Shown here one piece after another: positions 13,068 through 15,136 of a DNA stretch of 64,000 nucleotides. Source of the stretch: Patescibacteria group bacterium. Lineage in GTDB: Bacteria > Patescibacteriota > WWE3 > UBA101185 > UBA10185. Both the position numbers and the translations under genes were made by a program. Within the stretch, counting starts at the first letter, position 1. Each line of letters begins with the position of its first letter. The notes beneath the pieces were generated by a model. It did not search any database and was not told the origin of the DNA. It saw only the letters and a list, made by a program, of their open reading frames with translations. The stretch covers positions 26,486 to 90,485 of the forward strand of contig BPJL01000001.1 in the NCBI GenBank assembly GCA_026004595.1, read 5' to 3'.

Positions 13068-13931
13068 ATGGGTGCAATGTCTTCACCTACCCTAGATTTT
13101 TTTGTTGGAAATTGCTACTGTATATGTGTGAAGTTAAACATACACCTTTTTTTTAAGCGGGAGGGTTTCGTTTGGATTTTAAGCCCTTTCTCTATTTTTT
13201 TACTCTTTTCATTTGTATTTTTTGCACTGGATAGTAGCGTGCAAGTGTTTGCTCAAGGTACTTGTGTACTCCAAGCAAGTGGTGTGTGTGGAGGAGCTAC
13301 TAACCCGGTTACCGGAGTAGTAAGCAACTGCAGCACAGGTTATAGGTGTCAGTGTACGTACTCTCAGGGCTGCAGTTGCGTAATAGATCCCTTATGCGGA
13401 GCTATCAATCCGAATGATCCGGTATGTGGTAGTAGTACAGCCCAACTCTGCGGGGTAGCTGGTGGGTGCGGTCCCTACATGATGCGCTGCGGTATATTAG
13501 GCACCGGGGGGTACGGGTGTTACAACGATGCAACTTGCTCATGTGAAGTGGGCATGACCTGCCCTGGGGACGTGGGTCGATGTATAAATGGAGAGTGCCG
13601 AATTGATGATAGTGGAACAATAATTCCTCCCGGATATGACGATCCTGCAGCGTCCATAATAAGACCGTATCAAGGTCCCATAATAAGTAACATAACAGGT
13701 CTTTTATCCCCCATCTTTAAGATTCTCTTCTACGCTGGAATCTTCATCGGGTTTTTAGGTATAATTTATTCAGGATACCTTTTCATATCCAGCGAAGGCG
13801 ACCCAGGAAGGGTAAAAGAGGGGAGAGAGCAGTTCACAGCCGCTGTTCTAGGGTCTCTCTTCGTTTTATTGTCAGTATTTATAATCCGAGTTATAATCAA
13901 CGAAATCCTGGGTGTAGACTCAGGGCTGTAA
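13068..13931 (+). CDS. Cys-rich secreted domain fused to a C-terminal VirB2/TrbC-pilin-like 2-TM hairpin module
   Basis: The ORF opens at 12993 but would overlap the divergent SpoIID gene, so the start is probably at the internal Met (13068) or a downstream alternative start. The hydrophobic signal ends AQG. A ~150-aa domain carries about 30 Cys in CxC/CxxC patterns. The last ~70 aa are TM1 - SEGDPGRVKEGREQ loop - TM2, paralogous to the three downstream small ORFs. Confidence 0.45.
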   Translation: MGAMSSPTLDFFVGNCYCICVKLNIHLFFKREGFVWILSPFSIFLLFSFVFFALDSSVQVFAQGTCVLQASGVCGGATNPVTGVVSNCSTGYRCQCTYSQGCSCVIDPLCGAINPNDPVCGSSTAQLCGVAGGCGPYMMRCGILGTGGYGCYNDATCSCEVGMTCPGDVGRCINGECRIDDSGTIIPPGYDDPAASIIRPYQGPIISNITGLLSPIFKILFYAGIFIGFLGIIYSGYLFISSEGDPGRVKEGREQFTAAVLGSLFVLLSVFIIRVIINEILGVDSGL

Positions 13932-13971
13932 AGGGTTATCTGAGGGAGGTGTAGAATATCAAAGAATTTAT

Positions 13972-14307
13972 ATGAACTTATTATCTTTGTTAGAAACTAA
14001 GGTTTATGCTGTTACAGCTGTGGGCAGTACACCAATACAAGGAATGTCGATAGATAGTGTATCCGGCTTCATAACGACGATAACGAACATTATTATTATA
14101 GTTGGTGTCGGCCTTGTTGTTCTTTTCTTGGCCATAGGTTTCGTTAAATATGTTACCTCAGGAGGAGACAAGGCAGCTGTAGACTCGGCCCAAAAAACTC
14201 TTACCTACGCGGTAATTGGTGGTGTGGGCTTGTTACTGGTTTATGGCTTAAGGACGCTCATACTCGGTTTAATAGGTGGAGATGTCTCTCAAATTGAAAG
14301 CTATTAA
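13972..14307 (+). CDS. VirB2/TrbC-pilin-like small protein (2-TM hairpin)
   Basis: 111 aa with TM1 (IIIIVGVGLVVLFLAIGFV), loop SGGDKAAVDSAQKT, TM2 (YAVIGGVGLLLVYGL). It is paralogous to its neighbours through the shared GD(P)-containing loop. Confidence 0.45.
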   Translation: MNLLSLLETKVYAVTAVGSTPIQGMSIDSVSGFITTITNIIIIVGVGLVVLFLAIGFVKYVTSGGDKAAVDSAQKTLTYAVIGGVGLLLVYGLRTLILGLIGGDVSQIESY

Positions 14308-14390
14308 ACTACGGGGCCGTGTTTTGCTAGTTGTTAGGTGGGCCCGGTTAGGCCCGGGCCCTGTTTTTTAAAGGAGGCAGTTTTAACATA

Positions 14391-14699
14391 ATGCCGTTTG
14401 AGTGGTTAAATAATACAGTAGAAGGTGTGGGTGGTGTTTTAGAACCTGCTACAAATATGAGTATTGTTGGTGCTGCTACGAGAATCGCGAATATCGCCAT
14501 AATTCTGAGTTTTGGTTTGGCAACCATAAGCCTAGCATATGCCTTTGTACTATATGTTTATAGTCGCGGGGATCCTAAAGCAGTACATAGAGCCTCACAG
14601 GCTCTCCTTTGGGCGGTCATAGCGCTTATAGTTTCTATTGCGGCTTGGGGAATAAAAACTTTGTTTTTTGGATTGTTAGGTTTTTCCGATGTCGCTTAG
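14391..14699 (+). CDS. VirB2/TrbC-pilin-like small protein (2-TM hairpin)
   Basis: 102 aa with TM1 (IANIAIILSFGLATISLAYAFVLYVY), loop SRGDPKAVHRASQ, TM2 (ALLWAVIALIVSIAAWGI). An RBS-like GGAGG lies about 10 nt upstream. Confidence 0.45.
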   Translation: MPFEWLNNTVEGVGGVLEPATNMSIVGAATRIANIAIILSFGLATISLAYAFVLYVYSRGDPKAVHRASQALLWAVIALIVSIAAWGIKTLFFGLLGFSDVA

Positions 14700-14701
14700 C
14701 T

Positions 14702-15136
14702 ATGAAAAAAAATTTAGATAGGAATTTATTTTTAGAACTTTGGTTTGCTGTGACCCCCCTTCTTATTTGTGTCTTTCTATCGTTTCGGGCCTTCGCTCTT
14801 GATATGGAAAATCCAACACTATCAGATATAGGGGTTGTACTTATCAGGATAATGAATTGGGCTGTGTTTCTCGTTGGTATAGTTTTAGTTTTTTATATAG
14901 TGTACGGGGCTGCAAAAGCTTCTATGGCTCTCGGCGATCCAAGAGGATTAGAGTCAGCTAAAAGTACTTGGACCTACGCTTTGTACGGGGCCCTCATCGT
15001 TATTGCGTTTTTTGGAATTTTTACTATCGTTGCAGGATTTTTCGGGATTAGAATTGGGATGGATAGCATTTTTCAAGAAATAGTAGAAGGTATATCGGCT
15101 TTTATTACAGTTGCTCTTCCCCCACCTTCACAATGA
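14702..15136 (+). CDS. VirB2/TrbC-pilin-like small protein with N-terminal signal peptide (2-TM hairpin)
   Basis: Start taken at MKKNLDRN (14702); the 14609 ORF start overlaps the upstream gene. Signal peptide ends AFA. TM1, loop LGDPRGLESAKST, TM2; same family as the three upstream paralogs. Confidence 0.45.
   Translation: MKKNLDRNLFLELWFAVTPLLICVFLSFRAFALDMENPTLSDIGVVLIRIMNWAVFLVGIVLVFYIVYGAAKASMALGDPRGLESAKSTWTYALYGALIVIAFFGIFTIVAGFFGIRIGMDSIFQEIVEGISAFITVALPPPSQ

What the first reader, a model, noticed from the sequence alone, without database searches (positions are those of the whole stretch)
13068..15136. Four tandem paralogs of a 2-TM hairpin pilin-like family sharing a conserved GD(P) inter-helix loop
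All four end with the same module: hydrophobic helix, short charged loop containing G-D-(P) and a basic/K-T/S tail (SGGDKAAVDSAQKT, SRGDPKAVHRASQ, LGDPRGLESAKST, SEGDPGRVKEGREQ), then a second Gly-rich helix. Tandem diversified copies of a structural subunit suggest major and minor pilin variants, or antigenic or host-range variation. The third copy has a clear cleavable signal peptide. The spacing between copies is short, consistent with an operon.
Basis: seen in the sequence. Interest (0 to 1): 0.7.

Follow-up and report, generated by a model that had tools for sequence, protein, structure and literature searches.

The report
Patescibacterial VirB2-like secretion pilin array
Four neighbouring genes in this ultra-small (Patescibacteria, WWE3-like) bacterium encode diverged copies of the small two-helix "pilin" subunit of a type IV secretion system. 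Arrays of this kind were already described for this phylum in 2023-2025, so the finding is real but largely known.

Summary
Window 13068-15136 (+) carries four co-oriented genes (pil1-pil4) that each end in the same roughly 85-residue module: helix, S-x-G-D loop, helix.

- **The similarity is homology, not composition.** Leave-one-out HMMs recover each omitted copy (E 6e-8 to 2e-17). An HMM built only from distant relatives picks out exactly these four ORFs (E 3e-17 to 7e-10; next best about 1).
- **Family.** All four match Pfam PF18895 (T4SS_pilin), a family of about 89,000 clusters.
- **Already published.** Tandem arrays of 2-11 such VirB2-like pilins in Patescibacteria are in the literature (PMC12102498; Wang 2023).
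- **Ancient paralogs.** All nine WWE3 genomes examined keep 1:1 orthologues. dN/dS is 0.04-0.28, and there are no DNA repeats. Antigenic switching among the copies is therefore not supported.

Additional points from this work:

- **pil1.** It carries a signal peptide and a hypervariable ectodomain with 18-39 cysteines, fused to the best-conserved module. This type heads arrays in most distant lineages sampled.
- **pil2.** It is flanked by a conserved promoter-like site and a GC stem-loop, so it is likely the major subunit.
- **Not found.** No virB4 lies in the window or in the 10 kb upstream.

The parts
13068..13931 (+). pil1: long pilin. It has a signal peptide (cleavage predicted after VFA, about 13253), a Cys-rich ectodomain (about 13254-13667, 18 Cys) and a C-terminal pilin module (13668-13928). 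The likely true start is GTG 13128.
   Evidence: PF18895 E 1.1e-5 on residues 208-276. The module averages 72% identity across WWE3, the N-domain 32%. The N-domain has 18-39 Cys and 158-276 residues in orthologues. The pil1-type module is the first gene of distant arrays by a margin of 17-49 bits.
13869..13897 (+). Sigma-70-type promoter-like site TTGTCA-17-TATAAT, inside the 3' end of pil1 and 75 nt upstream of pil2.
   Evidence: 11/12 match. A 10-11/12 match sits at the same relative place in all 9 WWE3 loci. Function is inferred.
13972..14307 (+). pil2: short pilin (111 aa) and candidate major subunit.
   Evidence: PF18895 at 28.0 bits, above the 26.6 cut-off. It is the best conserved of the four whole proteins (67% mean identity). 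AF2 gives a helical hairpin, pLDDT 85. 100% identical to KatS3mg101_0047.
14340..14371 (+). GC stem-loop GGGCCCGG-TTAG-GCCCGGGCCC followed by a T-run. Terminator- or attenuator-like element right after pil2.
   Evidence: 8 G-C pairs plus TGTTTTTT. The stem is conserved in all 9 WWE3 loci. It is absent from other lineages' arrays. No Rfam family matches.
14391..14699 (+). pil3: short pilin (102 aa) with no signal peptide, preceded by AAAGGAGG.
   Evidence: PF18895 at 28.6 bits. NCBIfam NF045849 Mycoplasma ICE pilin-like, E 2.3e-6, below cut-off.
14702..15136 (+). pil4: pilin (144 aa) with signal peptide MKKNLDRN...RAFA and a 30-residue C-terminal tail.
   Evidence: PF18895 E 4.5e-5, 23.9 bits. 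Independent-HMM E 4.2e-13. JGI calls the same start.
19617..20945 (+). VirB6/DotA-like polytopic membrane protein (442 aa; KatS3mg101_0052) with a signal peptide and an N-terminal ectodomain with conserved Cys.
11214..13040 (-). Coiled-coil plus SpoIID-domain protein, divergent from the array. Conserved neighbour and candidate cell-wall remodelling partner (VirB1 analogue; inferred).
   Evidence: PF08486 E 6e-19. Conserved next to arrays in WWE3 and in L018, L025, L028 and L029.
8516..11165 (-). Conserved block of a 604-aa membrane-anchored beta-propeller-like protein, DUF5657 (79 aa) and a 184-aa 2-TM protein. Function unknown.
   Evidence: Synteny in all WWE3 loci and in L018, L025, L028 and L029.
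15139..19561 (-). 210-aa and 1267-aa proteins between the array and the VirB6-like gene. The 1267-aa protein has a TM segment and a C-terminal HELGH motif. Conserved in WWE3; function unknown.
   Evidence: No Pfam or NCBIfam hit. 1:1 orthologues in all WWE3 loci.

Best explanation
This is a chromosomal array of four VirB2-like pilin genes of the Patescibacteria-type (monoderm, MPF-FATA-related) type IV secretion system. The genome is a WWE3-like MAG (KatS3mg101).

**Topology.** Each product inserts in the membrane as a helical hairpin, with both ends outside and the S-x-G-D loop inside.

**Assembly (inferred).** The subunits are extracted and polymerised on a VirB6-like platform (gene at 19617-20945) by a VirB4 ATPase encoded elsewhere. 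The result is a pilus or conduit that contacts the host bacterium.

**Division of labour (inferred).**
- pil2 is the abundant major subunit, because it has its own conserved promoter-like site and 3' stem-loop.
- pil1 is a dedicated minor subunit. Its conserved pilin module anchors a fast-diverging, disulfide-rich ectodomain on the outside or tip, probably for host recognition.
- pil3 and pil4 are further minor or assembly subunits.

**Shown here:** homology, hairpin fold, orthology, purifying selection, neighbourhood.

**Inferred:** filament formation, stoichiometry, adhesin role.
For: **Family membership.**
- PF18895 hits on all four.
- The independent distant-member HMM gives E 3e-17 to 7e-10.
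- 24 of 24 aligned relatives hit PF18895 and 7 of 24 also hit PF04956 TrbC/VirB2.
- There is a weak NF045849 'pilin-like conjugal transfer protein' hit.
- AF2 gives a hairpin with helices H7-42 and H47-82. The top Foldseek hit is an archaeal conjugation pilin, 8dfu (not significant).

**Link to a T4SS.**
- In Levyibacteriota locus L022 the same 'one long plus three short' array is directly followed by PrgI/VirB3, VirB4 (P-loop_TraG E 1.5e-29) and an SLT protein, next to dnaN and dnaA.
- In the window, the neighbour p442 folds like VirB6/DotA.
- A T4CP-like ATPase and dnaA lie about 21 kb and 15 kb upstream.

**Conservation.**
- 1:1 orthologues of all four occur in 9 WWE3 loci.
- dN/dS is 0.04-0.28.
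- The promoter-like site and stem-loop around pil2 are conserved.
- The pil1-type module leads most distant arrays sampled.

**Literature.** Pilin arrays of 2-11 genes are reported in 383 assemblies (PMC12102498). The array in S. epibionticum is essential (PMC10633639, PMC12857230).
Against: - No virB4, virB3 or trsD was found in the 64-kb window or in the 10 kb upstream. The ATPase for this genome is therefore unlocated.
- Neither the four paralogs' own alignment nor a 24-sequence family alignment that includes them matches any solved VirB2 or TraA sequence.
- The fold match of a bare helical hairpin is not statistically significant (E 1.2).
- pil1 and pil4 fall just below Pfam's gathering score.
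- No pilus has yet been seen on any Patescibacterium.
- The major/minor assignment rests on regulatory-looking motifs only. The stem-loop shows no covariation because it is invariant, and it is WWE3-specific.
Confidence: 0.72

Rival explanations
1. The four proteins are membrane-resident parts of the translocon: small 2-TM subunits that line or gate the T4SS channel in a monoderm envelope. They are not filament subunits, and no extracellular pilus is made.
For: Gram-positive T4SSs generally lack pili (PMC12102498, PMC12857230). No pilus has been observed in Patescibacteria. The loop charges are not pilin-specific (by inspection). Multi-module fused 'polyproteins' exist (P0043 has six modules), and these would be awkward to polymerise as pilins.
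Against: Family members bridge to TrbC/VirB2 pilins. pil1 displays a large disulfide-rich ectodomain, which makes more sense on an exposed structure. The apparent high-expression signals on one paralog fit a polymer subunit.
Confidence: 0.17
2. The array is a repertoire for antigenic or host-range variation. Interchangeable major-pilin variants are swapped or differentially expressed, as proposed for Bartonella and Anaplasma VirB2 paralogs.
For: The paralogs are only 23-37% identical. PMC12102498 raises this idea for Patescibacteria arrays.
Against: Strict 1:1 orthology of each paralog holds across 9 WWE3 genomes. dN/dS is 0.04-0.28 for all four. There are no DNA repeats or conversion tracts between copies. 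The architectures are distinct (ectodomain, signal peptides, tail), which points to non-redundant roles. The pil1 type is conserved as the lead gene across lineages.
Confidence: 0.06
3. The resemblance is generic. These are unrelated small hydrophobic proteins (holin-, immunity- or SMR-like) that resemble one another only because they are TM helices.
For: Weak sub-threshold hits to SMR, MgtC and other TM families. PDB profile hits are compositional.
Against: Shuffle controls, leave-one-out HMMs and the independent HMM all separate the four from every other window ORF by more than 9 orders of magnitude. Motif positions outside the TM cores are conserved.
Confidence: 0.02

Closest known systems
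VirB2-like pilin arrays of Patescibacteria (Pfam PF18895; Quinonero-Coronel et al. 2025, PMC12102498; essential 6-pilin array of Southlakia epibionticum ML1, Wang et al. 2023, PMC10633639)
   Same: Same Pfam family. Tandem, co-oriented, sequence-divergent copies (about 25% identity). Chromosomal, origin-proximal (dnaA about 15 kb away). No relaxase in view.
   Different: Here the array is not adjacent to virB4 (this is also true of about 40% of the pilin genes in that survey). It sits in a WWE3-specific conserved block with SpoIID, two proteins of about 1270 aa and a VirB6-like gene. The papers read here do not mention lead-gene ectodomain fusion or the pil2 promoter and stem-loop.
TrbC/VirB2/TraA conjugative pilins of diderm T4SSs (Pfam PF04956; F, RP4, Ti, R388)
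   Same: Small protein with two hydrophobic helices and a short polar loop. Signal-peptide-type leader in some copies. Partnered with VirB6. Relatives of the window proteins hit PF04956.
   Different: The four proteins themselves do not hit PF04956 or any solved pilin sequence. The envelope is monoderm. There are multiple paralogs per system. One paralog carries a large N-terminal ectodomain. No evidence of cyclisation enzymes (TraF) or of VirB5.
Archaeal Ced/Ted conjugation-like pili (CedA1; PDB 8dfu) and Mycoplasma ICE pilin-like protein (NCBIfam NF045849)
   Same: MPF-FATA-related systems with small hairpin pilins. 8dfu is the top Foldseek hit (TM 0.61). NF045849 is the only NCBIfam hit.
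   Different: Both matches are below significance or the curated cut-off (E 1.2; 27 bits against 40). They are leads only.
Minor or tip pilin-adhesin fusions of other pilus systems (e.g. type IV pilus minor pilins with large C-terminal domains; VirB5 tip protein)
   Same: By analogy only: a polymerisation module joined to a variable binding domain, encoded first in the operon.
   Different: No homology. In pil1 the extra domain is N-terminal to a VirB2-type hairpin.

Membership tests
Pfam PF18895 T4SS_pilin (Patescibacteria/monoderm VirB2-like pilins) | Match to the family profile at or above the curated cut-off (26.6 bits) | tested here: met
   pil2 28.0 and pil3 28.6 bits are above it; pil1 25.9 and pil4 23.9 are just below. 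All four score E 3e-17 to 7e-10 against an HMM of 11 distant members that themselves hit PF18895.
Pfam PF18895 T4SS_pilin (Patescibacteria/monoderm VirB2-like pilins) | Two hydrophobic helices joined by a short loop with S-x-G-(D/N) and a following A-K-x-T-L-x-Y-A motif | tested here: met
   Hydropathy segments. AF2 hairpin, pLDDT 85. Motif columns S43, G45, A53, T56, Y59, A60 and G63 are invariant or nearly invariant in 24 sequences. pil1, pil3 and pil4 deviate at some positions.
Pfam PF18895 T4SS_pilin (Patescibacteria/monoderm VirB2-like pilins) | Genomic association with T4SS core genes (virB4, virB3, virB6) | tested here: inconclusive
   A VirB6/DotA-like gene lies 4.5 kb downstream and a T4CP-like ATPase about 21 kb upstream. 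No VirB4 is seen between -23 kb and +49 kb of the array. Association is direct in sister lineage L022.
TrbC/VirB2 pilins (Pfam PF04956) | Match to the PF04956 profile | tested here: not met
   No hit at E <= 1 for any of the four. 7 of 24 relatives do hit (best E 6e-8).
TrbC/VirB2 pilins (Pfam PF04956) | Sequence or fold similarity to solved conjugative pilins (TraA, VirB2, TrwL, CedA1) | tested here: inconclusive
   No sequence match in PDB. The Foldseek top hit is 8dfu conjugation pilus, but at E 1.2, probability 0.85, TM 0.61.
TrbC/VirB2 pilins (Pfam PF04956) | Polymerises with phospholipid into an extracellular tube; leader cleaved (and in some cases cyclised) | not testable with these tools
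   Needs biochemistry or cryo-EM. Only signal-peptide-like N-termini of pil1 and pil4 were seen, by inspection.
Antigenically variable VirB2 paralog families (Bartonella, Anaplasma type) | Rapid turnover, diversifying selection or recombination among copies | tested here: not met
   1:1 orthologues in 9 genomes. dN/dS 0.04-0.28. No inter-copy DNA repeats.
Type IV pilins (T4P/T2SS pseudopilins) | Class III signal peptide (G|F-x-x-x-E) cut by the prepilin peptidase; single N-terminal hydrophobic helix plus a globular head | tested here: not met
   No such motif in any of the four sequences (read). The architecture is a two-helix hairpin. No T4P Pfam hit.
VirB6/TrbL/DotA channel proteins (for neighbour 19617-20945) | Polytopic helical fold superposable on TrwI or DotA; profile match to PF04610 | tested here: inconclusive

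The most novel reading that the evidence does not exclude
The lead gene of Patescibacterial pilin arrays (pil1 type) is a distinct, ancient subfamily. A highly conserved VirB2-type hairpin serves as the anchor for a hypervariable, disulfide-knotted ectodomain. This subunit would be the host-specificity determinant at the tip or surface of a T4SS pilus. In WWE3 the pilus module (array plus VirB6-like gene plus SpoIID) has become genomically uncoupled from virB4. If so, the ectodomain could be used to predict host range for uncultured Patescibacteria.
Probability: 0.3. Interest if true: 0.6.

Novelty: new member of a known kind. Interest (0 to 1): 0.3.

Why it matters
Patescibacteria depend on host bacteria, and their T4SS with its pilin array is essential in the one species tested. 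What the pilins build, and why there are several, is unknown.

This locus adds a well-conserved WWE3 example. It shows that the copies are old, non-redundant and under purifying selection, which argues for division of labour rather than antigenic switching.

It also points to two concrete experimental handles:
- a candidate major subunit, pil2;
- a candidate host-recognition subunit, pil1 with its variable Cys-rich domain.

Finally, it gives structural support for a divergent VirB6 in a group of lineages (Microgenomatia-type and relatives) where profile searches had largely failed to find one. None of this changes the existing picture fundamentally.

Tried and rejected
- **PDB sequence searches.** Profiles of the four paralogs and of 24 family members returned only compositional hits (de novo helical designs, HtrII) and no pilin.
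- **Foldseek of the pil2 hairpin.** Nothing reached E <= 0.001. A bare hairpin is too simple a fold for such a search.
- **Related-loci search with alignment A2.** It failed because the alignment was too diverse. It was repeated with the narrower alignment A3.
- **Locating VirB4 of this genome.**
  - The homology search with a Levyibacteriota VirB4 listed only close Levybacteria-type hits.
  - The survey paper's supplements do not mention WWE3.
  - No paper holds both 'WWE3' and 'VirB4'.
  - An exact-pattern walk in metagenome contigs upstream of L033 found nothing.
  - The last window gene was not on record for a downstream walk.
- **p442 sequence searches.** Pfam, NCBIfam and PDB sequence searches were essentially negative. 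Only structure comparison was informative.
- **Rfam.** Nothing was found in the array.
- **Internal stem-loops in other lineages' arrays.** None was found after internal pilin genes. The only hairpins seen lie after the last pilin gene of the first cluster in L025 and the last two genes of the array in L020. The pil2 stem-loop is therefore WWE3-specific.
- **Rejected readings.** Type IV (PilA-type) pilin, holin or SMR-like small membrane proteins, and a recent duplication or gene-conversion cassette system.
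Full report
**Source and setting.** pil2 is 100% identical to KatS3mg101_0047 of a 'Patescibacteria group bacterium' MAG. Its nearest relatives are candidate division WWE3. The window corresponds to about 132,267-196,266 of a 768,150-bp JGI contig. It is ordinary chromosome: aminoacyl-tRNA synthetases, L25, SmpB and tmRNA, DnaG and sigma-70. dnaA lies 2-3.4 kb upstream of the window start, about 15 kb from pil1. A T4CP-like ATPase (TraG-D_C, TrwB_AAD_bind, T4SS-DNA_transf) lies about 21 kb from pil1.

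**The observation.** Four + strand genes occupy 13068-15136.
- pil1 runs 13068-13931. The most plausible start is GTG 13128, which gives MKLNIHLFFKRE..., a canonical signal peptide. The resulting length, 267 aa, equals that of the L001 orthologue (read).
- pil2 runs 13972-14307, pil3 14391-14699 and pil4 14702-15136.
- Each ends with hydrophobic helix, S-x-G-D loop, hydrophobic helix.

The similarity is not compositional.
- Pairwise scores are 15-48 bits, against shuffle means of about 2.
- Leave-one-out HMMs recover each omitted copy at E 6e-8 to 2e-17.
- An HMM of 11 distant non-WWE3 relatives picks out exactly these four of 422 window ORFs (E 3e-17 to 7e-10; next best about 1).
- No further copy exists in the window.
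- No DNA-level repeat links the copies.

**Family.** All four hit Pfam PF18895 'T4SS_pilin', with 28.0 and 28.6 bits above the 26.6 cut-off and 25.9 and 23.9 just below it.
- In a 24-sequence alignment every member hits PF18895, and 7 also hit PF04956 TrbC/VirB2.
- The family-wide motif is (T/S)-S-x-G-(D/N)-x6-7-A-K-x-T-L-x-Y-A-(I/V)-x-G.
- NCBIfam gives only a sub-threshold hit to the Mycoplasma ICE 'pilin-like conjugal transfer protein'.
- A profile search of 1.84 billion representatives finds 89,005 clusters at E <= 1e-3, so the family is very large.
- AlphaFold2 models the pil2 module as a helical hairpin (H7-42, H47-82; pLDDT 85).
- The top Foldseek PDB hit is the Aeropyrum conjugation pilus 8dfu, but it is not significant (E 1.2).
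- PDB sequence searches find no pilin.

**What is already known.** Quinonero-Coronel et al. 2025 used PF18895 and PF04956 and reported VirB2-like pilins in 1,948 Patescibacteria assemblies. They found 441 arrays of 2-11 tandem pilin genes, averaging 25% identity. About 40% of the pilin genes were not near virB4, and T4SS genes were often near dnaA (PMC12102498). In Southlakia epibionticum the pilin series lies within the T4SS cluster and is essential (PMC10633639; PMC12857230). The finding is therefore a new member of a described kind.

**Context and link to a T4SS.** Pfam finds no VirB4, VirB3 or VirD4 in the window.
- The whole block is conserved gene for gene in nine WWE3 loci. It comprises p604, DUF5657, p184, SpoIID (divergent), pil1-4, p210, p1267, p442 and p1272.
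- The divergent p604-p184-SpoIID block also accompanies arrays in distant lineages (L018, L025, L028, L029).
- p442 homologues lie within 10 kb of arrays in eight distant loci.
- Foldseek gives its highest probabilities (0.93-0.97) to TrwI. One homologue hits Pfam TrbL at E 8.7e-5.
- In Levyibacteriota locus L022 a 'long plus three short' array is directly followed by PrgI/VirB3, a 218-aa gene, VirB4 (P-loop_TraG E 1.5e-29) and an SLT protein. All of this lies beside dnaN and dnaA.

The family is thus tied to T4SS genes. In WWE3 the array keeps VirB6 nearby, but virB4 lies elsewhere and was not located.

**Evolution of the paralogs.** Each paralog has a 1:1 orthologue in all nine WWE3 loci.
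- Mean amino-acid identity across the genomes is pil2 0.67, pil4 0.50 and pil3 0.48. For pil1 it is 0.46 overall, split into module 0.72 and N-domain 0.32.
- For the least saturated pairs (dS 0.2-1.3), NG86 dN/dS values are: pil1 module 0.06-0.07, pil1 N-domain 0.10-0.13, pil2 0.10-0.28, pil3 0.04-0.15, pil4 0.09-0.17.
- Neighbouring genes score 0.03-0.09.
- All four are therefore under purifying selection, somewhat relaxed relative to their neighbours. Nothing suggests diversifying selection or cassette switching.

**pil1.** Its N-domain has 18-39 cysteines and 158-276 residues. It cannot be aligned between WWE3 subclades, so it changes by wholesale remodelling rather than point substitution.
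- Four group-specific HMMs scored every module in 15 distant loci. In 12 of them the first gene of the array matches the pil1 type by 17-49 bits. It is usually long (185-666 aa) with the module at the C-terminus. The short genes are not resolved into types (architecture).
- pil1-type 'ectodomain plus hairpin' lead genes thus appear to be an old, general feature.
- The signal peptide and disulfide-rich domain place the N-terminus outside, which fixes the hairpin topology as out-in-out. That matches what is known of VirB2 and TraA (established knowledge). It would put the extra domain on the exterior of a VirB2-type polymer (inference).

**pil2 expression signals.**
- A TTGTCA-17-TATAAT site (13869-13897, 11/12) lies in the 3' end of pil1.
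- A stem-loop of 8 G-C pairs plus a T-run (14340-14371) follows the pil2 stop codon, ahead of the AAAGGAGG of pil3.
- Both elements are present at the same places in all nine WWE3 loci, despite dS > 1.
- The stem is invariant, so there is no covariation evidence. It matches no Rfam family. Equivalent hairpins are not seen inside arrays of other lineages.
- The simplest reading is that pil2 is transcribed more strongly and largely terminated or stabilised at the stem-loop. That is the usual arrangement for a major subunit. This is inference.

**Verdict.** The 'antigenic variation' alternative is not supported. The system is a known kind. The modest new points are:
- the conserved lead-gene fusion;
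- the pil2 regulatory frame;
- the strict orthology and purifying selection;
- the structural identification of a divergent VirB6-like neighbour.

The main gap is the unlocated VirB4 of this genome.

Noticed in passing
window 46000-56000 (genes 49344-50030, 50020-51504, 51626-52498, 52470-53291, 53319-54392): A low-GC stretch (0.32-0.34 against about 0.41) carries a carotenoid-type gene set: lycopene cyclase, phytoene desaturase-like amine oxidase, phytoene/squalene synthase, UbiA prenyltransferase and polyprenyl synthetase. A P-type ATPase lies next to it. This is unusual for a Patescibacterium and looks horizontally acquired.
   Followed up: no
proteins P0043, P0046, P0091, P0132: The best hits of the family profile are single polypeptides with 2-16 pilin modules. 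P0043 has six modules joined by short Gly/Ser/Thr linkers with no sign of read-through. Some arrays therefore appear to be fused into 'pilin polyproteins', which are topologically compatible because each module runs out-in-out.
   Followed up: partly
window 8516-13040 (-) and loci L018, L025, L028, L029: The divergent block of a 604-aa membrane/beta-propeller-like protein, DUF5657, a 184-aa 2-TM protein and a coiled-coil SpoIID protein accompanies pilin arrays in WWE3. It also does so in Woesebacteria-type and other distant MAGs. This may be a conserved cell-wall or pilus-biogenesis partner set.
   Followed up: partly
window 15758-19561 (-) and 21001-24819 (-): Two proteins of about 1270 aa have no Pfam or NCBIfam hit. 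The first has a TM segment and a C-terminal HELGH metalloprotease-like motif. The second is very Cys-rich with a signal anchor. Both are conserved 1:1 in WWE3 next to the array.
   Followed up: no
L033 1-1452 and 6386-7786 (10 kb upstream of the window): A T4CP/VirD4-like ATPase (813 aa; DUF8128, DUF87, TraG-D_C, TrwB_AAD_bind) and dnaA lie just upstream of the window. The array is therefore origin-proximal, as reported for T4SS genes in other classes.
   Followed up: partly
window 25390-25778 (+); 63872-63982 (-): tmRNA lies directly downstream of smpB (24855-25319). A LOOT RNA (RF03000, 65.9 bits) lies at the window end.
   Followed up: no
window 57318-60483 (+): Type I restriction-modification genes: a fused HsdR_N/N6-methylase of 598 aa and a specificity subunit of 466 aa.
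   Followed up: no
loci L015, L021, L025, L026, L028: Several MAGs labelled 'uncultured Gammaproteobacteria' carry typical Patescibacteria pilin arrays. L021 and L026 also have a VirB4-sized ORF (674 and 663 aa) with a Walker A motif about 2-3 kb downstream of the array, like the confirmed VirB4 in L022. The taxonomic labels look wrong.
   Followed up: no
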